This document shows positions 23,661-58,690 of a DNA stretch of 64,000 bases, one piece after another. Position 1 is the first letter of the stretch; each line of letters opens with the position of its first letter. The position numbers were made by a program, and so were the translations under genes. Location of the stretch: positions 248,001 to 312,000 of the forward strand of contig JANJGN010000105.1 of NCBI GenBank assembly GCA_026770705.1, read 5' to 3'. The DNA is from Isurus oxyrinchus. Its lineage: Eukaryota. Under the pieces are notes generated by a model. That model did not search any database and was not told the origin of the DNA. It saw only the letters and a program-made list of their open reading frames with translations.

Positions 23661-25487
23661 AAGTACAGTGTGTTCATCTGATAAACATGCTGTCAGTCTC
23701 TCTAATATCATGCAGTTTTATGAGAGATATTGGGCGTAAAATGGATACAGTGTCAGACATTATTGTTCAATATTAGGATTGCTACTGTATCTGTATCTCT
23801 GGAACATGATGTCTGTGCAGGATTTTTCACATTTGGCTGTAATCAGAAGCTGAACAAAATGTCCCAATCTGTGGTCAAGGAATGAAACCCTTTAAAGCTG
23901 AAATTTGCCCCTTTAAGTAGCCAAATTGGGATCACTCCCTGCATGATATTCGCTGTCATGAACCATTCATGTCAATCTCTTCTGGCACGGGGTTCACTGA
24001 GACGGATGAAGAGTCAGTGAATAGAGAGGAGTGTCACACTTGTTCTGTTCCTGACTCTCCAGTCCCGGTCTTTTATTGAGAACTCTGTCACCCAGAGAAT
24101 GTGTTTTCCCCCGATTCACGTCTTTGAATACTGAGAGAGCTGACAGCTGTCAGTAACTCCAGTATCTAGATCCAGGTGAGGTCATTGTGGTTCCCTGTTA
24201 AAACAACACAATAACAAGCAAAGTTCATAGAAACTATCATGACTCAGATTCAGGAGGGAATCAGACACGGTGGCAATGTGCGCTCTCTACCTTCTGATTC
24301 AGGGTCCTGAACGTTACGGAAAAAGACATGATATCTGTTGCATTGTTGTTGTTGTGGTCGTATGACCCAATAGCTGAATCGTTTTACTTCCCTGTGTCTG
24401 CAAGGTTATCAGAAGATTGTCGGTTGGAGTCCTGCAATTTGTCTTCTGGTGGTTTCACGCAGATAGTTTGCCATGTACAGGAGTTCCAGCACACTCTGTG
24501 TGTAGAATTCTTTTTTACAATTCCCGCGGTAAAATATCTGGCTTTAATTGTTTTACGGTGGCACTGGGTCCTGGGATCCCAGTCAGCAGGAATAGGTTTG
24601 GGCTGATCTTAACTGTTCAACGTTTCAAAACAATGTATCGAATGCCTCCTGCAATCATGAGGAAAGACCTCGGTAAAGGGAAAGTCAGTGGGTTAAATAT
24701 AGGGACCGAGTTGTGTCGGGAATTGGAGAGGGCTAGGAGTGAGTTCAAGAGACAAGCAGAGTTACAGAGGAAGAAAACTGGAAGATTGGCCAGGAGGAAG
24801 AGAGAGGAATATGAGTGGCGTTTATCATCTTTCAAATTTTACTCAATGAAAGACCAAAACAGAAAAATATCCTCTGTGCCAAGGAGCTGCTGATAGTGCA
24901 GAGACCCAAAAATAGAACTGGAATTAGGAAAATCATCGTGTTCACTGAGGGAGAGGCAATGGGATTAGAAAAAAAAAAGTTACGAGGGGGCCGGAGATGA
25001 AAAGGCAGGATCCTGAATAACTGCTGTTCGAAAGCAAAGTAAATAAAGAGAAAAAATAAATTTTAATAATTAACAAACTGGTGGCAGAAATTGGAATGTA
25101 AATTACTCAGTCATGTTAGTCACTGTTTACAAGATGCAGTTTACTGTCGGAATATTTCTGATTCTGACTCGTTATTCATTACTAAATCGAGTGTGGCCGT
25201 TTCCTCTCGGTTTGAAAATACCTTCTTTCAGCAAGCTGTTCTGCTTTCAAGCTACCAATTCACTGGTTTCACGGAAATTCCGATTTAGCCGAGTTCAATG
25301 AAATTGGTTTCGGACACATACAGAACTGTCGGCTGACTGGTGGCATGAAGGGCCGGTCGTCTCAAGGAACTCTAATATTCCAGGATCTCGGAAAAGAGAC
25401 GCGTTTCCTCAATCTCCCTGTCGCTGATACCAAAACTTTATCTGCACCGTCTCCTAGATATGAATTTTAAGAAATATTTCCAAGTCG

Positions 25488-25560
25488 CTCCTCGTCGGGG
25501 AAGGTGAACCCCGGTCTTCCGCGTGACAGGCAGTGATACTGACCACTATACTAACGAGGA
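25488..25560 (-). tRNA. tRNA-Asp(GTC), best-preserved copy but probably a pseudogene
   Basis: Reverse complement TCCTCGTTAGTATAGTGGTCAGTATCACTGCCTGTCACGCGGAAGACCGGGGTTCACCTTCCCCGACGAGGAG; near-canonical, but the T-loop/B box is altered (TTCACCTT). Confidence 0.85.
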
Positions 25561-28623: not shown

Positions 28624-29245
28624 TCAGAGGCTGACAGAGACAGAATCAATCCCACACTCACATATAGTCCCATTGGCTGATATTTACAGAATCAATCCAA
28701 CACTGACAGATAGTACCAGAGACTGATATTTACAGAATCAATCTGACACTCACAAATAGTGCCAGAGACTGATATTCAGCGAATCAACCTCACAATCACA
28801 GATAGTGCCAGAGACTGATATGCACCGAATCAAACCCACAATCACAGATAATGCCAGAGATATTTATCGAATCAATCCCACAATCAAAGGAAGAACCAGA
28901 GACTGATATTTACAGAATCAATCTCACACTCACAAATAGTGCCAGAGGCTGATATTCACCGAATCAAATCCACACTTACAGAGAGTACCAGAGACTGTTA
29001 TTTATAGAATCAATCCCACAATCACAGATAGTACCAGAGACGATATTTACAGAATTAATCTCACACTCACAAATAATGCCAGAGCCTGATACTCACCGAA
29101 TCAACACCACAAATAATGATAGTGCCAAGGACTGATATTTACCGAATCAATTCCACAACCACAGATAGTAACCGAGACTGTTATTTATAGAATCAATTCC
29201 ACAATCACAGTTCGTACGAGGAACTGTCATTTTTAGAATCAATCC
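28624..29245. repeat. 46-bp minisatellite, about 13 units
   Basis: Unit cagagactgatatttacagaatcaatcccacactcacagatagtac; agaatcaat recurs at 28642, 28688, 28734 and onward. Confidence 0.95.
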
Positions 29246-30985: not shown

Positions 30986-31795
30986 CAGAGGGCAAACGCA
31001 AGGCAAAATAAGAGTGAGCTCCCCCCGCAATGTTGCCTTGTCGCCTGTGCAGTGGCGCTGCTGTATGACTGTTACTCAGATAAATACATCAATCACAACG
31101 GCAGTTAGCCTGTTATATGCCGCTTTCCCAACTTGCTCTAAACGCCGAATGCAATTGATTGAGGGCCGGGCGGAAATATATTTCAGTTCCCTGCCCTTGC
31201 AACTCCCCCGAATTATTGTACCGAATTTAAATTTTAGCAGGCACTGGGTAATTCCTCGTTGAAGCCCGCATCGTGAGTTTGCGCGACCTTCCTTCTAATT
31301 CGCCATGAAAAGCCATACGCTTCAATGCAACATCCTTGAGATACAGCACCATTTAGACATTGTTTTTACTTCAATGTTTGCAGTGCTTATACTCAGAATT
31401 TATCATCCTTCTGAAGGCAACTGTGAATGAGTAACTTGCACTGATCATGCGCAACATCCCCACATCCGAAATAAATGGAAAGAAGAGATTGCCTGAGATG
31501 TCAGTCTTCTGATGACGAGAACTTGTGCAGCTTGAGGTTTGCTTTCGACAGGATATTTTCAACGTTGAGAAGAAGGAGAACGTATCTGTTGCTGAACAGC
31601 ATTTTGAAGATCGTATCATTCAGCAGCTCTGGGACAAACATATCCTTAGGTCTCTCTGGAAACCTGAAGCTTTGACTCTGCAAATACGAGAATTCCAGCC
31701 TCTGCGATCAGTCATCAAGGAAGACTGCTGAATTCTCCACTCACTGCCAGTTGAATTTGAAAACCATATGATCATACCAATCAGTTGACCCCTCT

Positions 31796-31869
31796 GGGCT
31801 GTTAGCTCAGATGGTTAGAGCGTCGTGCTAATAGTACCAAGGTCGTGGGTTCGATCCCCGTACTGACCA
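31796..31869 (+). tRNA. tRNA-Ile(AAT), intact A/B boxes, stem mismatches (likely pseudogene)
   Basis: GGGCTGTTAGCTCAGATGGTTAGAGCGTCGTGCTAATAGTACCAAGGTCGTGGGTTCGATCCCCGTACTGACCA; 2 acceptor-stem and 1 anticodon-stem mismatches. Confidence 0.85.
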
Positions 31870-32964
31870 ATACAGCACTACCTGTTCTTGAACAACAGTC
31901 ACCCACGCTGCGTCCGATTATAATTCAAAAGTTATCACATCGGACGAACACTTCTACTACGACGTCGTTAATTTATAGCGTTGCCGGTTGTTTTTGGTTT
32001 TCTTTCCCACTTCTTGAGTCTGGAAAATTCCTCCATCTTTTTCTGACAAATTCGTTATTCTTTTAGTATTTCTGTGCCACAGGTCTGTTGCTAACATGAC
32101 AACAAACCTTTGCTACTGTACAGCAGCCCATTGTGTCTGCTCTAGCTCTCCATAAGAGACATCCGCTGCCTTCTCCCCCTAGCCCTTTACATTGTTCTTT
32201 TTGAGATAATAGGCTCCCTCAATTTTTAATGTTTCAATTGAACCTGCCTCCACCAATCTCAGGGAGTGCATCCCAGGCCGTAACCACTTTCAACGAGAAA
32301 AAAGTATTTTCCGTCATGTCATTTTAGATTATTTTACCAATTAGTTTCAACCTGTGCCCTTTCTATTTAGATCCTTTCGCAGATGGGAACACGTCCTCCT
32401 TATGCACACGGCCCAAACCCCTCATGATTTTCAATACCTCTATCATATCAGCTGCCAACCATCTCTTCTCCAATGAAAACAGGGCTAAATTATCCAATCT
32501 ATCTTCATAACTGAAGTTGCTCATCCCAGAAACCATTCTTGTGATTCTTCTCCGCATTCTTTCCAACATCCTTAACATCTTCACATCCTTCCTCAAGTGC
32601 AGCGCCCGGAAAAAGAGGGGATACACCAACAGAGGCTGAAATAGTGCCTCATATAAATCTCATTTGCCCTATTTCCATTACAACGCTCTTTGAGCCATGA
32701 CAAATGTTGTCTGCTGCCGTCACAGGCAATCGCTTTCGACGCAACCCCACAACCAATGGAACAGGTCTAAGCTCTGAAGTTTTTCCACATCGAGTCATGA
32801 ATGGTGATGGGTAATTAAACAACTAACTGGAAGGGGAAGCTGCGCGAATAAATGAAGGCCCGTTCACACAGCATCCTAAATGCTTGCTTAACCAAGCCTT
32901 GCTTGGTTTGAGTGCATCAACAGTCGGTGTTGCACTTGGAACCGTTAAGCTTTGTCGACCAGGG

Positions 32965-35251: not shown

Positions 35252-37854
35252 TGAATTCGGTAAAATCACACCAGCAAACTGTCCCAAGGACTTAAGAAAA
35301 AAGTTATCATTAACAATAAAGCTGACGCTCAGCCATGCAAGGAGAAATTGGGTCAGGTGACAAAAGCTTTCACAAAGAGGTAGATTTTAAAGAGCTTCCT
35401 ATGAATTAGAGAAGTGGAGGGGTTTAGAGAGGGAGTCCAGAATTTTATACCAGGTCAGCTGAGTGCACGGTTGTCAATGCTGTAGTGATTAAAACCCGGA
35501 ATGTACAAGCTGGCAGAAAAGCAGAAATCTGCACGTTGTCTTGGGCTGGAGGAGGTTACAGAGAAAATGAGGGGGAAGTCATGGGGAGATTTAAAAGGAA
35601 GGATGAGGGTTTTAAAATTGAGGCAATTCCAGGCCAGGAGCCAGTGTCGGTCAACAATGACTGTGCTGATTGGTGAACTGGACTTGGTTCAGGTGAAGTA
35701 CCAGGAAGCAGAATTTTCGATGAGCACAGTTATCTGTGGGGTGGAACATGTGATGCTGGCTAGGGGGACACTGGAAGAGTCAAGTCTAGAGTGAACAAAG
35801 ATCTGGAAGAGGGTTTCAGCAGCTGGTTAGCTGAGGCACGGTCAGATTTGACCGATGTTTAGGCTGTGCAAGTACAATGTGTTCAACTGATAACGTTCTC
35901 TCAGTCTGTCTAATGTCAATCAGTTTTATCAGGGATAATGGGGGTAAAATGGATCCAGCTTCAGGCATTATTTTTCAATATTAAGGATGTAACTGTATCT
36001 ATCTCTGGATAATGTTGTCAGTGCGGGAGTTTTCACATTTCACTGTGATCAGAAGCTGAACAAAGTATCCCAGACTGAGAGAAAAGACTGAGACACTTTA
36101 AAGCTGACAATTGCCCTTCAAGTGGCCCAGTTGGGATCATTTCCTGCAGGATTTTTGCTGTCCATGAACCATTAACATCAATAATTCCTGGCACTGGGTT
36201 CACTGTGAGGGATGAAGAGTCAGTGAGCAGAGTGGAGTGTCACAGTAGTTCCGTTCGTGACTCTCCCCATCCCGGAAGTTTAGTGAGGATCGGTCTCTCT
36301 GGGAATGTCCCAAATTCCGCCTGATTACCATCCTTCAACCCTGAGACAACTGACAGCTGTCAGTTACTCCAGTATCGGGATCCCGGGGAGTTCATTGTGG
36401 TTCCCTGTTTAAACAACGCAATAACAAACAAGGTTCATAGAAAATATCATAACTCAGATTCAGAAGTAGATGAGGACATGGGGGCAATGTGCGCAGTCGA
36501 CCTTCTGTTTCAAGTTCCTTAACGATATGGAAAACTCAATGATATTTGTTGCATTGTTGCTGTTTGGTCGTGTGGCCTACTAAATAATGCTTTCTACTTC
36601 CATATGTCGTGCAAGGTTATCAGAAGTTTTTTTATGGAATCATGCAATTTGTCTTATGATCGCTTCACGCAGATAAATTGCTGTGTACAGATTGTCTAGC
36701 ACACCTTGTGTGTAGAATTTTTTTCTAATTCCCGTGGTAAACACTCTGGGTTTAGTTCTTTGACGGTGGCACTGGTTCCTAGATTCCCAGTCAGCGGAAA
36801 TAGTTTTGGGCTGATCTTACCTGTTCAAAGTTACAATAAATGTAACTAATCCCTCCTTCTATCATCAGGAATGACCTCGGGAAAGGGAAAATCAGTTGGT
36901 TAAGTGCTGGGACTGAGTTGTGGCTTGGTGTCAGGGAGTGAAGAGGATGAGGAAGGAGCTTAAGAGACAAAGAGAGTTACAGAGGAAGAAAGCTGAAAGA
37001 TTGGCGAGGAGGAAGAGAGAAGAATATGAATGGCGTTCATCATTTTTCAAATTTTATTCCATGAAACATCAAAAGAGAAAATAACCTCTGTGCCAAGGAG
37101 CTGCTGATGGTGCAGAGACCAGAAAATATAACTGGAATTAAGAGAATAATCGTGTTCACTGAGGGAGAGGCAATGGGATTAGAAAATAAAAGTTACGAGG
37201 GGGCCGGAAATGAAAGGCAGGATCCAGAAAGCTGCTGTCTGAACGCAAAGTAAATAAAGGGAACAAATACACTTAACAAATAAACAAAATGGTGGCAGAG
37301 GTTGTAATGTAAGTTATTCTGTCATGTTACAGTCACTGTTTACAAGATGCGCATTTACTCTCAAATTATTAATGAATTCTGCCGAATTAGTCATTACTAA
37401 ATCGAGTGCAGCCGGTTCATCTAGTTTTTAATATATGGTATTTTAGCAAGATTTCCTGGTTTGAAGCTACCAATTCACTGATTTCACTGAAATTTCGATT
37501 CAGCCCAGTTTAAATGAAAAGCCAGCATGGGTGCCGGGACACATACGGGACGTGGGCTGACTATTGATGTGAAGGGTCGTTCCTCTCAAGGAACAGTATT
37601 ATTCCAGGACTCTGAAATCAACCACAGTTCCTGAATCTCTCCCGTCACTGGCTCCCAATCCTGTCGATGGTGCTATCTCATGAACTCCAAGAAGGTAACG
37701 CATTCGCTCATTAAAATCACAAGCATGACTCTTTTACTGAAACATTTGGTCTCAGGCAGAGAGCTTAGTTCACCACCAACACCTCCTGGGAATTACATGC
37801 AATGCATTCACTTGCTTAATAAATGCCTGGTTACTGGTTGATATATGCACACAC

Positions 37855-38080
37855 CCTTGTCAGCCTCAATGGCCTTCAAGAGTAAAGGCTTCCTCTCATC
37901 TGGTTTAGAAGATGCGCCCCTGCAGTTTGCGTTCAGAAGGACATCACTAGTGAAGACTGCATGCACCAGGCGGTTTATAACCAGGATTCTCTTTTCTAAA
38001 TATTTCAGAGTCTGCAATTTTTCAGGTGCTATAAAAAATATTTGACGATGATGCAGTTCCACCTTCTCTTGCCCGCAGTT
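37855..38080 (-). CDS. Open internal exon encoding the N-terminal two-thirds of a BEN-like domain (functional status unknown)
   Basis: TTTCAG|NCGQEKVELHHRQIFFIAPEKLQTLKYLEKRILVINRLVHAVFTSDVLLNANCRGASSKPDERKPLLLKAIEADK+G|GTGTGT; 226 nt, no stop; resembles the BEN pattern 'L..+F+.+.L.....G....KP.L...+.AIK'. Confidence 0.55.
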
Positions 38081-38169
38081 CTGAAAGCTAGGGAATTAAT
38101 TTGAGACCCTGATAGTCCGATGGCTGCAAGTGGGTGTTGCTGCTACACCACGATGGGATGTGAAAACGT

Positions 38170-38600
38170 TTGAGGACTCTGGGTCTATACTCAATGGAGT
38201 TTAGAAGAATAAGGGGTGGATTTGATTGGAACTTACAGGATACTCACAAACCTGGATAGGGTGGACGTGGGGAAGATGTTTGCATTAGCGGGAGAGACTA
38301 GGAACCGATGGCACATCCTCAGAGTAAAGGGAAGACCTTTTTGAACAGAGTTGAGGGGAAACTTCGTTAGCCAGAGAGTGCTGAATCCATTGCCACAGAA
38401 GGCTATGGAGGCCAGGTCGTTGAATGTATTTAAGACTGAGATAGATAGGTTCTTGATTGGTAAGGTGATCAAAGGTTACTTGGAGAAGGGGGGGAAATGA
38501 GGTTGAGAAACTTATCAGCGATGATTGAATGGTGGAGCAGGCTCGATGAGCCGAATGGCCTAATTTCTGCTCGTATGTCTTATGGTCGTATGGTCTTATG
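38170..38600 (+). mobile_element. Relatively young CR1 LINE 3' end
   Basis: LRTLGLYSMEFRRIRG.LI.TYRIL..LDRVDVGKMF; 3' tail ctcgtatgtcttatggtcgtatggtcttatg. Confidence 0.9.
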
Positions 38601-38849
38601 AAAATAGACAATATGCTTTCATTTCATTTTCAATTGTAATTGTGTCATGCCTCCTTTCCCACTCCCATTCTTTAATCCTGCCTCCAGGCGGTATTCTTTA
38701 TGAAAAAATGGATTCTCAAGGAACTATGTAATTTCGGCATGCATTGGTGGTTGATTGGCAGTTGCCCCCTGAGGTCTGCCATAATTCTGGTAAGAACTGC
38801 TGGTCTTTATGCAAAAGATTTAAAAAATTGTTTCAATGATGGACATCGT

Positions 38850-41800
38850 ATCATCGTAAAGAACGAGTCAAAGCTTGATCGCTGTGATTTCTCACTTAAA
38901 TTCCCAGCGTGGTGACAAAAAACACTCATTAGCATTGATCAACCTCAAAGCTGCAAGGCTCAACTAGGCAGGCCACTATATGCCTTAGAGTGCGGTAGAG
39001 CAAGGTTTTTCTTCATTCTCTCCAATGTAACGTCCCTGACAAGGTGGGCATCCTCATCCCTTGAGAATGGTTAAGAGGCAACCACATTTCTGCAGGCAAG
39101 ACTGGGTAAGGGCAGCAGATTTCCATCCCTAAAGGACATTTATGAATCTGATTTTTTTACATCAACCAATGATAGTCTAATGTGAGTCAACATTATTTAA
39201 ATCAGATTTATATCCCAGAATTTCTCAACTGATTTGAAATTCGATCAGCTGCCATAGTTGGATTTGAACCTGTGTCCCCTGAGTATTAACCTCCCTGGAT
39301 TACATGACCAATAAAAAAGGCCTGTCAATTGAGGTAAGCCCCATTCTCTCTAATCCATTGCCTGTGAGCAGATTCTTGGGAAATTCGAGGGGGAGAACAT
39401 GATGTGAACTCTCAGCATGACCTAAGTTCACATAATGGAGAGATAGTTCCACAAGCACTCACACACTTTTCATCTTCAGACCTGCTGTCAACTGCCATTG
39501 TCCATGCCCTCCAAGGGACCAAAAACGTCCCACATGAGCTTTCAAGGTTTCATAGCTTCAATGGAAAGAGGAAACTCGCAGATACTTTATCTTGCTCCCC
39601 AGAGGAATCCAAGGGCTATAAATTCAGAAGCCGTTGGGGGGACGCAGGGGCGGGGGTTGCATGGGGATTATCCACGTGCATTTCATTACATTCAATGGCA
39701 GAATCTCTATCCGCACAACTCTGTTTTCAGGTGCCTCAAACTATTCATCATAATGTGCAGGGACCCGGCAATCACACACTGTAGAGGTAGCAGCTGATCA
39801 GCTTAGTGCAGCATGGAACAGACAATTATTTCCCAGGTTTGTGACACAGAATACATGCTCGTACGTGGGCATAGCTGTTCAACTGAGTGCACAGCCTATC
39901 GTACTCTGCACACAGGATACCATTCTTCTGTCTCACAGCTTTCCGTTCAGCCTGTTGCACTCGGTAGCAGAACTGTAGTATGCATGGAGGTGGATAAAGT
40001 GGTATTGGATCTGCAATGCTGGACAACGCATGTGCATTACCCACCCATGTAAATTCAGCTGTTACCAAAGGAAGGTCAGCAGAATGTGGCTGTGAATGCA
40101 GCTGGTGAGGGACTTTGTGTCTCATTGGCCTGATGTGGCTATTTTGTTTCTGACTGTGGGCTAAACGTTGACTCTCAGCCTCCTGCTGCCTTTCCTCCTT
40201 CCCTCTGGCTAGCTCACTCGGCTCCTTTCCACTGTCACTCTACAGAGTGTCCGTTTTCAACAATGCTGAGCACTGCTCGGTGCCACAGTTGGAGGTTGAC
40301 AGGTTCCTGGTGGTGGATGATTCCTCCTCGTACCCCACCTCCAGCCTGGCCATTGTGCCTGCAAAGAGCAGTCAGCTAGTCCCCAACCTATGCCCAGGTG
40401 AGGGAAACTGTTTTCGCTTTTTCTGTGGTGAGCAATCGCCATTGCCATGGAGTCAAGCGGCTGGAGGATGACACTGCCCTTGGTCTTCACTTTTTTCACC
40501 TTCTGTGTGCTCGCTCCTTCTGCACGGTCAGCAACAGCGTCCAGCTGCAGATCAACAGTGTGCTGTGCTCCTTCATTAACTCTGCAAATGTAATATTTGA
40601 ATGTCTCTGAAATCAGTCAATTCACAATAAATAGGATTGAATAAAAGTGTTCTTTGTTTATTGCAGCTAATATATCTGCCTCTGTAACAGTGCAATGATC
40701 ATTGCTTGTGCTGCGCTCTGCAGACAAGAACATAAGCCATTTACGTGAGTTCACTATTACACGCGGACTAGTTCATCCTGTGAGCAGAGATAGCTTGTAC
40801 CAAACAGATAGCCTGGAAGTCCACCGGCGGCAAAGCGCACAGGAAGCAGCTGGCCACCAAGGCAGCCCGGAAATGCGCCCCCTCCACTGGCGGAGTGAAG
40901 AAACCTCATCGCTGCAGGTGTGTTTTCAGACGTGCTCCGAGAAATCAGCCAATGACACAATTCCACCCCGTTGCTTATCCGCAAACTGTCCTTCCAGCAC
41001 CTGGTGAGGGAAATTGCCCAGTGCTTCGAAACTATCCTGAGGATCAGTCTGCGGTAATTGGAACATTGCAGGAAGCCAGAGTGGCCGACTTGGGTGGCCT
41101 CTTTGAGGATACCAACCTGTGTGCCACCCATGCCAAAAGAGTGACCGTAATGCCCAGAGACACCCAGCTGGCACGACGGCTCCTGGGGTAGTGTGCCTAA
41201 ACTCTTTGCTTCATTACATTTCCTCCAGACTATTTTGAAGTGACGTTTAAATATTTTCTGAAACATTATTGGACTGTTGGTTTGGCTTCTTGTGGAGGCT
41301 GGGCCTTTATTTTGTATTTTTGTTAGTTTGAGTATTGAGCGTGAATCAGTGTGGAAGCAGCGAAACATTTTGTAAACAGTCCTTCCGAACTCTTGGCTCA
41401 GGTTGCAAAATGAACATTAGTATGTTAAAAAAAAAATGAATTGGTCGAGTCTGACCTATACATGCACATCTAACAGGAAGTATTTCAGAAACGATTGTGC
41501 AGAGTGATTTTTTGAACAGTTTTCTGGTTACTCTTACACTCTATGTTGTTTGCCATGACCCCAGGCCTATTCAATAACCTAGATTTTCACTGTCAAAAGC
41601 GCTGATCTTCACTGCGGCCTTCTCTATGTTACAGTAGTAGAAAATAAAGGAGAAATCTTACCACTTATTCTCAAAATTTCGCCAAGAAACTCCCTCCCCC
41701 CTTCTATTTCACAGGGCCCGTCCCCCCTCCCTCCCTATCCTACTTGTCGCTCGCGGCAGACAGCGGTTCAATCCTGGTCAGCAGCTCCACGTTCCAGAAA

Positions 41801-41880
41801 ACCAGCCATAACTTTCGAGTCGTTACAGTGTCCATATGGTCGATAGGGATGGTAATAAGACTGGACAAACCCTAGTAGGA
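38850..41880 (-). pseudogene. Coiled-coil/CxxC/BEN-like gene relic, copy 2 (exon 1 ends 41662; exon 2 40581-~39833; exon 3 starts 39615)
   Basis: ..REFLGEILRIS+G|GTAAG (41661); TTGCAG|AG-LMKE (phase 1 matches). Frame 40353-39826 has a single stop over 176 codons and ends NGILCAEYDRLCTQLNSYAHVRACILCHK. Confidence 0.55.
40790..41200 (+). pseudogene. Intronless histone H3.3-type pseudogene
   Basis: 411 nt; (ATA)[40 protein letters not shown]...[11 protein letters not shown]...[29 protein letters not shown]31 and I89-G90 are H3.3-diagnostic; start codon lost, frameshifts, premature stop. Confidence 0.95.
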
Positions 41881-42246
41881 ACCTGCTGAGGGAGTGATAT
41901 GGTCAATGGTCAGAATGGCAGCAGTGGTCAGAAAAGATTGAAAATTAGTGGCGGGAAGCAAAAAGATCTGGGAACACGTTATGACAAGGATTGATGACTA
42001 CACCAATCTAGAGATTTATTTGAAATCTATTGGAATGCAAATGTTCCTAGAGCATTTCAACTGGGGGTAGTTATTAAACCTCAAGTGGACATTTTGTCCA
42101 CTCCAAACTAAGTTGAAGAAAACCGCTCCTTGTATGCGGGGAAGGCACTGATAAAGAGTGGAAACTGAAACATTGTCTGAATAAAGCACGAGCGGCAGAT
42201 GAAGAGACTTCCGCGGTTCAGATAAACATGTAACAAAGATCATCCC

Positions 42247-42400
42247 CTGAATGTGCTGGAGGTTTTGGAGATACCCTTGTGGTGAGGACTGCCTGCGGTC
42301 ATTGTTTCTCTGCTCTACATCCAGAGAGCAGGGAGTGTAATTTCTCGCCGAAGATGCACCATGCCGACTGGCTCAGCACAGGGCCGAGTGCTGCATAACT
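42247..42400 (+). pseudogene. Degenerate C3HC4 RING-finger-like relic
   Basis: Frameshifted pieces LEVLEIP / VRTACGHCF / ..C.(M)CRL; the 3' part recurs at 27680-27830. Confidence 0.35.
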
Positions 42401-50685: not shown

Positions 50686-51618
50686 CTAATCTCTTTTTCT
50701 CTGCACGCAGAACTCCATTCTCCTGCGTCAGCACTTCCATTTCACCCAGAATCTCTCGTAGGCCAGAGTGTGCTTGTCCACCGAAAACATCTGGGTGTAT
50801 CACCCCTGCTATTTAATGATATGGGTAAAGTGGTGTTGGACCTGTGATACTGGCCAGTCCATGTCCATTCCCCACCCATGTAGGTTCAGCTGCTGACAAG
50901 TGAAGCTCAGCCGGATGTGGCTGTGAAAGCAGCTGCTGAGGGGCTCTGTGTCTCATTGGCTTCTTGTGTGACTGTTTTCATTCTGACTGGCGGAAAAACG
51001 TTAACCCTTCTCCTCACGTTTCCTTGCCACCAACTCTCTGGATGGCTCACTTGGCACCTTTCAGCTGCCACTGTATGGACTGTCTATTTTCATCAATGCT
51101 GACCGCTGATCGGTGCCACTGCTGGAGGTTGACACAATCCTGATGGGAGGCAGTTCCACCTCTCCCTCCTCATCCTCCAGTTGCCCACTATCCCTGGACA
51201 CAGCAGCCAGCTAGCCTCCAAACTAGGCCCGTGCGAATGACAGTATTTGACTTTGTTGCCATGGTGAGCCACATCCATTGCCAAGTAGACAAGCGGTAGG
51301 AGGTTGCACACTGACCTTGGTCTTCACTTCATTCATCTACTGTGTGCTCGCTCAGCTGCACATCAACAGTGTGCTGGGCGATCTTGAGCTCTTTCCTTAA
51401 CTCTGCAAAAGTAACATTGGAATGTCTGAGAAATCAGCCAGTTCACAATGAACAGGATTAACGAGAAGGATTATTTGTTCATCACTTTTCGCAGCTTTTC
51501 TTATGTGCCTCTGTAACAAAGCAATGATCATTGCTTGTGCTGCACTCCACAGTCAAGAAGATAAACCATGCATCCGAGTTCACAATTGCTGGCGGACACG
51601 TCCATCCTTTGAGAGGAG

Positions 51619-52030
51619 ATGGCTCGTACCAAACAGGTCACCCACAAATCCACCGGCGATAATGAGACCAGGAAGCAGCTGGCTACTAAGGCAGCCAGGA
51701 AATGTGCCACCTCCACTGGCGAAGTGAAAAAAAAACCTCATCGCTACAGGCCAGTTACTGTCACGCTCCGAGAAATCCACTGATGCCAGAATTGCACAGA
51801 GTTGCTTATCCGCAAACTGTCCGTGCAGCGCCTGGTGAGGGAAATTGCCCAGGGCTTCGAAACTGACCTGAGGTTTCTGAAAGCTGCAATTGGAACTTTG
51901 CAGGAAGCCAGTGAGGCCTACTTGGTTGGCCTGTTTAAGGAGACCAACCTGTTGCATCCATGTAAAAAAAAATTATGTAACACCCAAAGACACCCAGCTG
52001 GCATGACGGATCCCGGGAGAACGTGCTTAA
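51619..52030 (+). pseudogene. Intronless histone H3.3-type pseudogene (duplicate)
   Basis: [54 protein letters not shown]...[50 protein letters not shown]; the AAIG motif marks H3.3. Confidence 0.95.
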
Positions 52031-54829
52031 ACGCTTTGCTTGATTATATTTTCTCCAGACGATTATGAAGTGACATTTAAACAATTTCTAAAGCATTATT
52101 GGACTGTAATATTGGCTTCTTTTAGAGGCTGGGTCTTTATTTTATATCTTTGTTATTGTTGAGTATGACCATGTCTTATTGTGGAAGTAGCAAAATATTT
52201 TGCAAACATTCCTTCGAACTCTTGGCTCAGTTTGAAAAATAAAGCACTTTTATCTTTAACAAATAATACAAGAAAATTGTCGAGTTTGACGTATACAAGC
52301 ACGTCCAAACGGACACGTCAAAGAAACAATTGTGAACAGTTATTTTTTTAAACAGTTTTCTGGCCATTTATACACTCTACGATGCTTGGCATGACCCGAA
52401 GCTTAGTTAATAATCTAGCTTTTCCCTTTCAAATACGCTCAACTTCAGTGTGGTCTTCCCTATGTTACAGTCAGAGAAAGTAAAGAACAAATCTTCCAAC
52501 CTAGTCTCAAAATTTTCCTTAAGTACTTCCCTCACCCCTTTTATTTGACTTCTTCCATCCCCTATTCCTCTGGATCCTTCTGCTGCCTCATCGGAGACAG
52601 CAGCTCAATCCTGGTCAGCAGCTCCGCGATGCAGAACATCAGACAGAACTTTCGGGTCACGACAGCTGGATCTGCCGGGGGTGCCGAGTGCTCGGCAGCA
52701 ATAAGGTCACTTATGTCCAGATCGCTCATAGGGAAATGAATAATAGTGGACAAAGCCAGATTTTAACTTGCTGAGGAAGTGAGAACGGTCAATGGTCAGA
52801 ATGACAGCAATGGTCAGAAAAGACTGAAAATTAGTGGCGGGAAGCTAAAAGATATGGGAATACTTTATGACAAGAATTGGAGTGACTATACCTATTGACA
52901 TGCAGGTGTTTCTAGACCATTTTCAAACGTGTGTAATTCTCAAACTTCAAGCGGGTGCAAACACTCTGTCCTCTTTAAACTAAGTTGAAGAAAACATATC
53001 TCTATATCTGGGGATGGGACTGAGAAAGACTACAAACAAATAATGCTTCATTTAAACAAGAACAGCAGATGAAGAGACTGCCACAGTTGATATAAAAACA
53101 TGAGCATCATTTTTTGGCGAAAAATCAGTGCAGATGTCTCAAGCCAGTTCCTATCTCCTCTCACCCGCCTCCCCCACTAAAAACAAATTCATACCGGTGT
53201 TGCTTCCCTCCTCCCACCCTCTAACGCCATTCTGTCCTGGCTTCCCCTACCCAGTCTCGGTGCTGGCCTGACTCCCCCCTACCCTTCCGTAATATCACAA
53301 TAATTGTTTGTATTCGCCACTCCTCCCTCTCTTGGGATCCACATCGTTCTGGCCTCGCACTTCACCCACAGCCAATTTAAAACTTTGTGGCCTCTCCCGG
53401 CTCGGGACTGAGGCTGCAATCTCTTGCATTCTCGGTCCCACTCACTGCTGATCCACATGGAGCTGTTTCAATTACCGATAACAAAGAGAGAAGGGGCACC
53501 GACCAGCACAGAATGTGGAAATGCTCCTGGGAGCAGCAGGCTCTGGGGGAGTGGCCTCTGCACCACACAAAGGGTTTTTAATGTTCACTCCTTTGTCTGG
53601 CTGGGAGGAGCAGAGGCCAATCCTATAATGCTGAATGTTCCAGGAACAGGCTGCATTTCCACTTCCTGTCCCGGAGCAGGAGGGGATTAGACGATGGTTG
53701 GAAAACAAAGAATGAGCAGGGTTATGGGGAGAAGGTAGCAGAATGACACCAGGTGAAATGTTCATGTTTTAAAATTCTGTATTAATTGTTGTTTGTTCTG
53801 CTATCGTTTTCAAACTTTACCGGGCGGGAATAACTCCCTGTTCACAACATGCTGTAAGTGACAACTGAGTCTTGTACATTTGGAGAGGTGGGGAGCAAAG
53901 TGAGTATGATACAAATGTAGGTCGTAAAATAAGGTGTGAAGGGGACGTAATGATATAGATAGGTTATGTGATTAGACAAACACCTGGCAAATGGGGTATA
54001 CAGTAGTAAAACGTGAGGTTGCCCATTTTGGCAGGATGAACAAAAAAGAGGCAGATAATCCAAACACTGAGAGATGGCAGAACCATGAGTTCAGAGGCAT
54101 CTGGTTGTCCTAGTGCATGAATTATTTTTGTTTAGTTCTGCTGCAAAACTCTCGAATACCATTGAAATTCGAATGGTCCTGAGTCTCAGGCCAAATTCTT
54201 CCTTTCTCTGAGGCCAGAATGGTTGCTTTGCAAAAGGCCTCATTCTCTAAAAAAAAAGCCTCCGTTTCGAATTAAACATTTTTTTTTATTGATGCACCGA
54301 TCGTGCTGTCTCGCCCATTCGCTGACATGTTCTCTACCTTTCTTTTGAAATCTTAAAATCAGTTCAATCTTTCCGTTTAATTCTCACTTCAAAGCTGAGT
54401 AAGGCAGCAGGGTGATCTGTGACAGGGAAATCATTTCGTTTTACGCAAGAGGGACTCAGAAATCATGCGATGAGAGCGGACTCAGAAACAGAGGAGAATT
54501 ATTCTAACCCACCAGCCCCTTTCACACTCTTTCTGACACAATGTTGAAGTCTGCACATTCACAGGACAAATTGTTCCCAGATTGACAGATCCCATGTTAG
54601 GCTTCCCCCTCCACACGGCCTGTTCTGTGGATTCTCAGGGGTTAGCTGTAGTTTCCCAGCTCTGCTCACAGTGCCTGTTCTCCAGGTTCAGGGCTGAAAC
54701 TAATCGCACCTCTGTTTGGATTATCACAGACCGAATTTTATGTTATTAAATTGTTCACAAGCAAAGATATATTTGATTAACATGAAAAACAAAATGTATG
54801 TTCTGGCCCTCCCTTAAGCTTATCCCACC

Positions 54830-56100
54830 TTGTTTTGCAGTACAAGTTATAAAAGAGAGAGGGCGGAGTGATAGACAGAAACACGGTAAGTTCAGGCAGT
54901 GAGACACAGACGGTCAAACAAAGTAACTGTTCCAGGAAACATTGTGCAGTCTAGTTTAACATAGAAAGCTTCAACTGGAGAGGTAGAAGATTTAGTCTCA
55001 TCTGTCACTTATACTGTACCAGAAACAAAGACAGTATTAATCTCACACTCGGGGTAGTGCCAGCGAGTGAACCAAAGTCGTATATTTAACACTCGCTTCC
55101 ATGCTGAAATCTCTGCCGTCTTGCATGTCAGGGTCGCTAGGTGTTGCTCTCAGTAACCGAGTGTTTCCCTCCGGCTAAATGAATCTGGGAGTCCCACTGT
55201 CAGATATTAACTATTGCTCGAACCCAGCAAACTTATTAACTCCATCACTCATCCCATATTTCTGCAGGTATGCTCTGTGAAGATGAGCTGGTGAACACCA
55301 AATCCCTGCAGGGAATAATCCCAAATTGAGCTTCTTAAATGGACAATCTCCCAATTTTCATTGTTCTCTGACCTTTTCCATATCTCTAGTTCTTTTGTTT
55401 ATGTATTGGTCAATGTGAATTATAAAATATGTTGATTTTAGTTACTGATTTAATGCGGAAATCCACACATGAGGTATTTAGTCCCAAATCAAACGCCAAT
55501 TGCTTGTGAGTCAGAGACTGATGAATACAGAATCAATCCCACACTCACGGATAGTGACAGAGATTGATATTGATAGAATCAATTCCACAATCATAGACAG
55601 TACCAGAGACTGATATATATAGGATCAATTCCAAAATGGCAGATAGTACGAGAGACTGTTATTGATAGAATCAATCTGCACTTACATGAATAGTAAAACA
55701 TTGCAGGGTTATGGGGAGTGGCAGGGCGTGAATTGTTTCTTTAGAGGGCCAGCATGGATTGGACAGCCGAATAGCCCCTTTCTTTCACGTAGCCATTCTA
55801 TGATTCTAATGGAAAATTCTTGAAGAACTGAGTAGCTCTGGTAGTTTCGAAGCTTCGATAGCGAGTCTATTTATTAAAACTTCTGTCAACCACACGTCCT
55901 GTCTCCACAGATACTGCCGGACCTGCTGAGTGTGTCCAGCATCTTCTGTTATTATTTCAGAATACCAGAGTGAGCAGTATCTCACTTTTTGAACAATAAA
56001 ACAATCTCTGTGCTGGAATCGATATTCAAATAAGAAATGGGAAGCGGCAGAGTGAAAAGAGAATCGGTGAATTTTATTAAATCCGAATAATTCTGTCCTG
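54830..56100 (+). repeat. Segmental duplication paralogous to ~27930-29690; contains about 4 units of the 46-bp minisatellite (55510-55680)
   Basis: Colinear, e.g. gagagagggcggagtga..gcagtgagacac, aaatccctgcagggaataatcccaaatt, cttacatgaat..aaaacattgcagggtt. Confidence 0.88.
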
Positions 56101-57639: not shown

Positions 57640-58690
57640 ATCTCAGGGGGTCAGGAATGGCGAACGTTGCATTGTCCAAGGGTGCCACTGATCGAGTGCT
57701 GCACTGTCAGAGGTTTAGACATGAGGGAGCTCTCCTTTGTCAGAGGATCATGAATCCCAGAGTGCTGCACTGTCAAAGGGTCAGGGCTGAGGGGACACTG
57801 CACTGTCAAAGATACAGGGCTGAGGGAGGGCTGCATTGTCAGGGGTTATGGCTGAGGGAGAGCTGTATTGTCGGTGGATCAGCACGGAGGGAGCACTTCA
57901 TTGTCAGAGGGTGCAGATTGTGGGAGCGCTGAACCGTCATATAGTGGTAGCTCTGCAGTGTTAGAGTGGTAGGATGAAGGATAACTGCACTGCCGAGCAT
58001 CAGGACTGAAGGAGCACTTCAATCTCAAAGCTTCAGTGCTTACAATGCGTTGCACTGTCAGACGGTTTGGGCTGAGAGAATGTTGCACACATAGAGGGTT
58101 AGGATTGAGAGAGTGCTGCACTGTAATAGGGTCAGGACTGAGGGAGAGCTGTACTGTCGGAAGATGAGGTCTGAGGCTGTTGCACTATCAGAGTCGAAAG
58201 AATAAAGGAGAGTTGTCAGTCAGTGGGTAAGCACGCAGAGAGCGCTGCACTGTCAGAGGGTCAGGACTGATAGGCACTGCACTGTCAGAGGGTCAGGAAT
58301 GATTGAGCGCTGCACTGTCAAAGGGTCAGGACATATCGAGCGCTGCACTGTCAGAGGGTCACGGCTGATGGAGTGCTGCATTGTCAGAGGGTAAGGGATA
58401 AGGGAGCAAAATGCTTTCAGATGTTCAAAACAGAGGGAGAGCAGCACTCTCATTGGGTCAGAAATGAGGGACCGCTGCGCTTTCAAAGCATCAGGAAAAC
58501 TGAAGCGCTGCACAGTCAGTGGGTCAGGAATGAGAGAGCGCTTTTCTGTCAGAGTTTCGGGAACGATGGAGCACCGCACAGTCAGAGGGTCAGGAATGAG
58601 GGAGCGCTTCACTGTCTGAGTTTTGGGAATGAGGGAGATGCGCATAGTCAGTGGGGAAGGACTGTGAGGGCTGCACTGTCAGAGGGGAGC
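57640..58690. repeat. 33-bp minisatellite, about 30 diverged units
   Basis: Unit ctgcactgtcagagggtcaggaatgagggagcg; ctgcac at 58277, 58310, 58343; produces 11-aa repeat pseudo-ORFs. Confidence 0.92.

What the first reader, a model, noticed from the sequence alone, without database searches (positions are those of the whole stretch)
40582..41661. Intronless H3.3-type gene nested antisense in intron 1 of the BEN-like gene, with shared variant residues
Seen: H3 copies (40790-41200 and 51619-52030) lie inside the inferred 1.08-kb intron in both complete copies. They carry H3.3 residues (S31, I89-G90) but no coding introns, and I see no histone stem-loop after the stop. Established: vertebrate H3.3 genes contain introns, so this is a retrocopy. 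Both copies share S28C, A91T and I124T, so these changes predate duplication: either early decay or a real H3 variant lacking the S28 phospho-site next to K27. A histone variant nested in a putative chromatin-factor gene and amplified with it is unusual.
Basis: partly seen in the sequence, partly recalled or inferred. Interest (0 to 1): 0.7.

Follow-up and report, generated by a model that had tools for sequence, protein, structure and literature searches.

The report
Dead histone H3.3 copy, passively multiplied
A broken, intron-free copy of a histone H3.3 messenger RNA sits backwards inside an intron of a decayed BEN-domain gene and was likely multiplied to about 60 copies simply by riding along when that DNA block was duplicated, so it is an ordinary dead gene copy, not a new histone variant.

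Summary
The retrocopy is real; the histone variant is not. Both window copies derive from one intron-bearing H3.3 gene on contig C15. They lack its coding introns and keep its 3' UTR up to the first polyadenylation signal, followed by an A-rich tract. Paralogous units with an empty site show an insertion of about 0.68 kb, antisense in an intron of a NACC1-like BEN gene.

Both window copies are broken. Copy 1 has lost its ATG and has two frameshifts and a stop; copy 2 stops at codon 53. Of 59 copies at this one insertion site, 0 are intact. dN/dS between the window copies is 1.05 (CI 0.67-1.86).

The 'shared variant' residues do not predate duplication. A clade of 11 copies at the same site mostly keeps S28 (9) and I124 (9). 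T91 occurs in only 11 of 56 copies, on separate branches. dN from the parent to the first split is -0.002, so the founder likely encoded plain H3.3. The host exon also evolves neutrally (dN/dS 1.08).

Verdict: a processed pseudogene spread by segmental and tandem duplication. Low interest.

The parts
40582..41661 (-). 1080-nt intron of the decayed BEN gene (GT donor at 41661, AG acceptor at 40582); about 400 nt without the insertion
   Evidence: Sequence. The acceptor is conserved across paralogues; in the distant relatives L096 and L150 similarity starts close to it. Splicing is inferred, not observed.
40754..41436 (+). Processed H3.3 retrocopy insertion, copy 1: short 5' UTR, CDS, about 225 nt of parental 3' UTR, decayed polyA signal (41409-41414) and A-tract (41427-41436); ends accurate to a few nt
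   Evidence: Matches three exons of the C15 parent joined without introns, 81-89% identity. Absent from empty-site paralogues L064, L067, L095, L101, L172, L180.
40790..41200 (+). Broken H3.3 coding sequence, copy 1: start codon lost, +1 and -1 frameshifts that put about residues 44-84 out of frame, premature TAG at 41189-41191
51403..52497 (-). Homologous intron in the second unit; the donor reads GG instead of GT
51619..52030 (+). Broken H3.3 coding sequence, copy 2: TGA at codon 53 (51781-51783), later frameshift and second stop; the ORF from the ATG is 54 aa
39834..40581 (-). Large host exon after the intron (about 250 codons: lysine-rich and acidic stretch, then a likely coiled coil), decayed; the 3' end is inferred from a donor in paralogues
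   Evidence: One frame is poor in stops: 47 of 3011 codons against 126 and 181 in the other frames. dN/dS is 1.08 among 13 diverged copies and none is open over the whole exon.
41662..41790 (-). Host exon upstream of the intron (5' extent approximate)
   Evidence: Conserved among paralogues up to the donor; the start of the gene was not determined.
37850..38083 (-). Host exon encoding the first part of a NACC1-like BEN domain
   Evidence: A profile of 9 copies hits the NACC1 BEN domain (PDB 8yzs, 7bv9) at E 1.8e-5 and 2.6e-5. Pfam BEN is weak, in 2 of 9 members (best E 0.066).

Best explanation
This is a processed pseudogene: a spliced copy of an H3.3 mRNA, now broken in every copy examined, lies antisense in an intron of a decayed BEN-domain gene and was likely multiplied passively as that 11-kb unit was duplicated. 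SHOWN: (1) the parent is an intron-bearing H3.3 gene on C15; (2) the copy lacks the parental introns and has the 3' UTR and an A-tract; (3) the same unit exists with and without the insertion, and all filled copies share both junctions; (4) no copy is intact, and copies diverge at dN = dS. INFERRED: (5) insertion by a LINE-type reverse transcriptase (no target-site duplication was recognised); (6) the founder encoded unmodified H3.3 and was duplicated almost at once; (7) S28C, Y54C, D77G, K79E and I124T arose by neutral drift on the stem of one of the two daughter clades, and A91T arose more than once later; (8) tandem duplication, then larger segmental duplications, produced about 60 copies, while the host gene decayed at the same pace.
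For: Parent and splice junctions. Empty versus filled sites. 0 of 56 aligned copies are intact, with at least 2 and on average 4.0 disabling lesions and 27-49 residue changes each; 3 further copies are also broken. dN/dS: window pair 1.05 (0.67-1.86), within clade A 0.97 (0.76-1.29), clade A vs B 1.20 (0.91-1.56). Parent-to-first-split dN -0.002, dS 0.083. The two window units are 75-79% identical in every segment, CDS no more than 3' UTR. Parental CpG sites changed about twice as often as other sites (13 of 52 vs 76 of 578). Host exon dN/dS 1.08.
Against: The copy census is a lower bound: searches scored 40 of 223-259 candidates. A 21-nt pattern scan gave 45 matches, of which 41 were unit copies already held. 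No lesion is shared by all of clade A, and its stem has dN 0.041 against dS 0.018 with overlapping intervals. Expression could not be examined. Some near-identical copies on small contigs may be alleles rather than paralogues.
Confidence: 0.9

Rival explanations
1. A short-lived H3.3 variant (S28C, Y54C, D77G, K79E, I124T) was translated in the ancestor of clade A, after the first duplication, and died later.
For: These five changes mark most of the 48 clade-A copies: position 28 is non-S in 47, C54 in 40, G77 in 40, E79 in 45, T124 in 43. Clade A has bootstrap 100. Stem dN 0.041 exceeds dS 0.018. No frameshift or stop is common to the whole clade.
Against: The intervals overlap (dN 0.016-0.069, dS -0.010-0.051), which fits neutrality. 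At the observed lesion rate, a stem of about 14 substitutions stays open by chance with P about 0.33. Position 28 kept drifting afterwards (Y 22, C 21, stop 4, S 1). Only about 20 nt of 5' UTR were copied, so no parental promoter came along.
Confidence: 0.05
2. The copies act as non-coding regulators: host-unit transcripts carry antisense H3.3 sequence, kept where the splice donor is lost, and would yield small or antisense RNAs against the parental H3.3 mRNA.
For: All copies sit antisense to the host, at 75-86% identity to the parental mRNA. The GT donor is lost in many filled copies, including window copy 2.
Against: No sign of constraint: the retrocopy diverges as fast as its flanks. The donor is also lost in some units without the insertion (L171, L172). 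The host is decayed.
Confidence: 0.04
3. The unit is a DNA transposon (CACTA/EnSpm type with a BEN accessory gene) that captured the retrocopy and spread it by transposition.
For: A dispersed relative of the host on C11 (L150) directly abuts tnp2-like transposase fragments (Pfam Transposase_21 E 0.035; a relative of it E 2e-4). The window's BEN exon has a weak DUF4806 match (E 0.045).
Against: No transposase match in the window or in any fetched unit locus. 0 of 6 other transposase loci had host sequence within the 10-20 kb fetched. Copies occur in head-to-tail runs about 11 kb apart and in larger blocks repeated across contigs, which fits tandem and segmental duplication. Terminal inverted repeats were not looked for.
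Confidence: 0.06

Closest known systems
Processed pseudogenes propagated by segmental duplication (human CICP/SEPTIN14P loci; PMC13015009, abstract seen)
   Same: One RNA-derived insertion multiplied secondarily by duplication of the surrounding block.
   Different: Here the passenger is H3.3, the carrier is a decayed BEN-gene unit, and empty-site paralogues survive in the same genome.
Segmentally duplicated LCORL retrocopies of equids (PMC10249811, abstract seen)
   Same: An old retrocopy amplified to tens of copies (17-35 there, about 60 here).
   Different: LCORL retrocopies supply most LCORL transcripts and are argued to be functional; these H3.3 copies are all disrupted and evolve neutrally.
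H3.5 (H3-5), hominid testis variant likely retroposed from H3-3B, and the human H3.3-derived loci H3P16 (H3.6) and H3P44 (H3.8), listed as pseudogenes (PMC9526256, passages seen)
   Same: Derived from an H3.3 gene, with changed residues; H3.5 is described as likely arising by retrotransposition.
   Different: H3.5 is an expressed gene encoding a distinct protein; this finding has no intact ORF in 59 copies and belongs with the pseudogene class.
NACC1/NACC2-type BEN domain (PDB 8yzs, 7bv9), for the host gene
   Same: The host exon at 37850-38083 aligns to the first part of the NACC1 BEN domain (E 1.8e-5).
   Different: The host is a multi-copy, decayed family with a different N-terminal region; no intact copy or named homologue was found.

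Membership tests
Processed pseudogene (retrocopy) | Identifiable intron-bearing parent gene | tested here: met
   H3.3 gene at G000:C15:63086705; 81-89% identity per exon, clearly above the other H3.3 and canonical H3 loci.
Processed pseudogene (retrocopy) | Parental introns precisely absent | tested here: met
   Both coding introns are absent. Similarity also starts at the exon-2 acceptor, and the upstream 20 nt resemble a candidate exon 1 and a second, independent retrocopy.
Processed pseudogene (retrocopy) | 3' UTR ending at a polyA signal followed by an A tail | tested here: met
   Similarity ends about 15 nt after the parental AATAAA; an A-rich tract follows in the unit copies.
Processed pseudogene (retrocopy) | Discrete insertion (empty site exists) | tested here: met
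   Six paralogous units join the two flanks directly.
Processed pseudogene (retrocopy) | Target-site duplication | tested here: inconclusive
   None recognisable in the junction alignments at 20-30% divergence.
Processed pseudogene (retrocopy) | Disabled ORF and neutral evolution | tested here: met
   0 of 59 intact; dN/dS 0.97-1.20 between copies.
Functional H3 variant (H3.5-like retrogene) | Intact ORF with a complete histone fold | tested here: not met
   0 of 59.
Functional H3 variant (H3.5-like retrogene) | Purifying selection; diagnostic residues fixed across copies | tested here: not met
   dN/dS about 1. Over 56 copies, position 28 is Y 22, C 21, S 7, stop 4, G 2, and position 91 is A 45, T 11.
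Functional H3 variant (H3.5-like retrogene) | Expressed as RNA and protein, deposited in chromatin | not testable with these tools
   No expression data could be brought to bear.
Replication-dependent (canonical) H3 gene | 3' stem-loop, A31 and S87-A-V-M90 | tested here: not met
   No stem-loop match in 2 of 2 window copies, against 4 of 4 canonical loci; S31, I89 and G90 are present.
BEN-domain gene (host) | BEN domain | tested here: met
   Profile hit to NACC1 BEN, E 1.8e-5. Below the Pfam cut-off for single copies and missed by a genome-wide Pfam BEN scan.
CACTA/EnSpm transposon (carrier unit) | Tnp2 transposase within the unit | tested here: not met
   No tblastn match in the window or unit loci; adjacency in only one dispersed relative.
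CACTA/EnSpm transposon (carrier unit) | Terminal inverted repeats and target-site duplications at unit ends | not tested
   Unit boundaries were not mapped.

The most novel reading that the evidence does not exclude
After the first duplication, one daughter copy was for a time an expressed H3.3 variant with C28, C54, G77, E79 and T124, co-amplified with an unnamed NACC-like BEN chromatin gene family; an intact member may survive in a related species, or the roughly 60 antisense copies may feed small RNAs against H3.3.
Probability: 0.07. Interest if true: 0.6.

Novelty: new member of a known kind. Interest (0 to 1): 0.14.

Why it matters
As a histone variant it does not matter: there is none. 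Its modest value is as a marker. A single insertion with surviving empty-site paralogues orders the duplication history of a large, decayed NACC-like BEN gene array in this genome. An independent retrocopy of the same parent on C16 provides a neutral control. It is also a clean caution: residues shared by two neighbouring copies reflect their shared branch, not function.

Tried and rejected
RNA: no RNA holder was listed for window 39300-42300; five runs with the same species label held next to none of its words. This says nothing about expression, and no reads or contigs were laid, so expression and the true exon structure stay open.

Host protein searches led nowhere: Pfam on 15 ORFs from host loci, three homologue searches (0 hits each), the ESM Atlas (best score 0.88, below the useful level) and a genome-wide Pfam BEN scan (5 hits, none in these units). 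Only the profile against PDB identified the BEN exon. No intact host copy turned up in three own-genome protein searches (longest open frame at a match 236, 222 and 262 aa, the exon needing about 250).

I first read the large host exon through to a stop at about 39700. I rejected this because distant relatives show a splice donor about 40 codons earlier.

The transposon reading was considered and given low weight.

Rows dropped: 7 short hits to a different, canonical-type H3 pseudogene were left out of the 57-row copy alignment. The C8 pattern match has no H3 sequence. A partial, broken H3.3 copy at C35:2.84 Mb without unit flanks (L264) is not counted among the 59.

Literature: 'shark' + 'histone H3.3' + 'pseudogene' gave 2 unrelated papers; 'BEN domain' + 'transposon' + 'EnSpm' gave 0. 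I did not find this locus described in these searches, which cover open-access papers only. No supplements were read.

Full report
OBSERVATION. Window 40790-41200 and 51619-52030 hold H3 sequence on the + strand. They lie in two copies of a unit spaced 10.8 kb apart, 73% identical over 2.3 kb. Neither copy is a readable gene. Copy 1 begins ATA, shifts +1 near 40920 and -1 near 41044, and stops at 41189. Copy 2 stops at codon 53, then shifts frame and stops again. They differ from H3.3 at 37 and 36 residues. S31 and I89-G90 are present. A recalled stem-loop motif matches 4 of 4 canonical H3 loci and 0 of 2 window copies. The copy-1 intron (40582-41661, - strand) has GT-AG ends; in copy 2 the donor reads GG.

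PARENT AND INSERTION. The genome is 4.98 Gb; earlier scan notes call it shark-like, which I did not test. A protein search returned several intron-bearing H3.3 genes and many canonical H3 genes. One H3.3 gene, at C15:63086705, matches the window copies exon by exon at 81-89%, including about 225 nt of 3' UTR. Similarity ends just after its first AATAAA, where the copies carry an A-rich tract. Six paralogous units join the two flanks directly, without the 0.68-kb insert (L064, L067, L095, L101, L172, L180). No target-site duplication could be recognised. A separate retrocopy of the same parent lies on C16, with unrelated flanks and a longer 3' UTR; it is also broken.

CENSUS. I aligned 56 copies that share both junctions and later added 3. 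A 21-nt pattern scan gave 45 matches: the parent, C16, 41 copies already held, one unrelated site and one partial copy. The set is therefore probably close to complete, though formally a lower bound. The copies sit on C17, C20 and many smaller contigs; some near-identical ones may be alleles. None of the 59 is intact. The 56 aligned copies carry at least 2 and on average 4.0 disabling lesions, and 27-49 residue changes.

ARE THE SHARED RESIDUES ANCESTRAL? No. The tree splits the copies into clade A (48 copies, including both window copies) and clade B (8, plus the 3 added later by similarity), each at bootstrap 100. Clade B keeps S28 in 9 of 11 and I124 in 9 of 11; among the first 8, Y54 is kept in 7 and D77 in all. 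In clade A, position 28 is Y in 22, C in 21, stop in 4 and S in 1. T91 occurs in 10 of 48 clade-A copies and 1 of 8 clade-B copies, on separate branches, as ACA in one window copy and ACT in the other. Estimated from pairwise distances, the path from parent to the A/B split has dN -0.002 (CI -0.007 to 0.004) and dS 0.083. The internal branch separating parent + C16 from A + B is about zero. So the founding insertion likely encoded ordinary H3.3 and was duplicated before it changed; S28C and I124T belong to the later stem of clade A.

SELECTION. dN/dS is 1.05 (0.67-1.86) between the window copies, 0.97 (0.76-1.29) across the two halves of clade A and 1.20 (0.91-1.56) between clades. Against the parent the ratios are 0.72-0.81, as expected when the living parent adds only silent changes. 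CDS, 3' UTR, intron and host exons of the two window units are all 75-79% identical. Against my reading: the clade-A stem has dN 0.041 and dS 0.018, and no lesion is common to all of clade A. The intervals overlap, however, and a stem of about 14 substitutions stays open by chance with P about 0.33.

HOST. An exon at 37850-38083, aligned over 9 copies, hits the NACC1 BEN domain at E 1.8e-5; single copies fall below Pfam's cut-off. The exon after the intron keeps traces of an old open frame (47 stops in 3011 codons against 126 and 181). Among 13 diverged copies its dN/dS is 1.08 and none is open throughout. The host was therefore likely decaying while the array expanded. Dispersed relatives lie on C7, C10, C11 and C23. 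One abuts CACTA-type transposase fragments, but the link was not repeated at 6 other transposase loci or in the units. An earlier scan note on a dead NACC-like BEN gene elsewhere in this genome (e1-9800383) led me to look for the BEN exon; whether it is the same family was not established (one search found no look-alike).

MECHANISM. Shown: spliced origin, one shared insertion site, empty-site paralogues, disruption of every copy examined, neutral divergence. Inferred: LINE-mediated reverse transcription of the proximally polyadenylated H3.3 mRNA; passive multiplication by tandem and segmental duplication of the unit. That antisense intronic insertions are tolerated better than sense ones is recalled knowledge, from no call.

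COMPARISON. This is the pattern described for processed pseudogenes spread by segmental duplication (PMC13015009, abstract). Amplified LCORL retrocopies in equids are similar in history but expressed (PMC10249811, abstract). H3.5 shows that an H3.3 retrocopy can become a variant (PMC9526256, passages), but the features that define such a variant, an intact ORF and constraint, were tested here and not met. PMC2584115 (passages) documents antisense retrocopy insertions in host genes.

VERDICT. A real but ordinary feature: a new member of a known kind. Interest 0.14. The boldest reading left open is a transient variant on the clade-A stem or an antisense RNA role, at about 7%.

Noticed in passing
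window 37850-42200 and paralogues on C17, C20, C23, C35, C47 and many small contigs: A large multi-copy family of decayed NACC-like BEN genes (lysine-rich and acidic region, likely coiled coil, BEN domain) with no intact copy or named homologue found; this family is more interesting than the H3 passenger.
   Followed up: partly
L168, L167, L173, L156, L162, L179, L177 (about 5 kb from clade-B copies): A second, different H3 pseudogene of canonical type (about 80% identical to clustered H3 genes, with the 3' region) travels with clade-B units, so these units carry two unrelated dead H3 sequences.
   Followed up: partly
L163, G000:C16:42992849: Independent H3.3 retrocopy of the same parent, ending at the distal polyA site, broken.
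   Followed up: yes
L002, L003 (C188, C136), close paralogues of window copy 1: Compensating +1/-1 frameshifts leave a 133-codon ORF from ATG: H3 tail, about 41 scrambled residues, then the C-terminal half of the fold. Probably chance.
   Followed up: no
L150:3100-3930 (C11): CACTA/EnSpm-type tnp2 transposase remnant on the opposite strand, ending about 30 nt before the acceptor of a host-gene relative; 6 other remnants of the family were found in the genome.
   Followed up: partly
window 25487-25560 (-) and 31795-31870 (+): tRNA-Asp(GTC) and tRNA-Ile(AAT) genes predicted by ARAGORN inside the duplicated region.
   Followed up: no
window 28640-29245, 55512-55676 and 57765-58686: A 46-nt tandem repeat (13 copies) carried by the unit, and a 33-nt tandem array (18 copies).
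   Followed up: no
L037 (C8:167.1 Mb): A canonical-type H3 sequence interrupted by an inserted repeat of about 540 nt.
   Followed up: no
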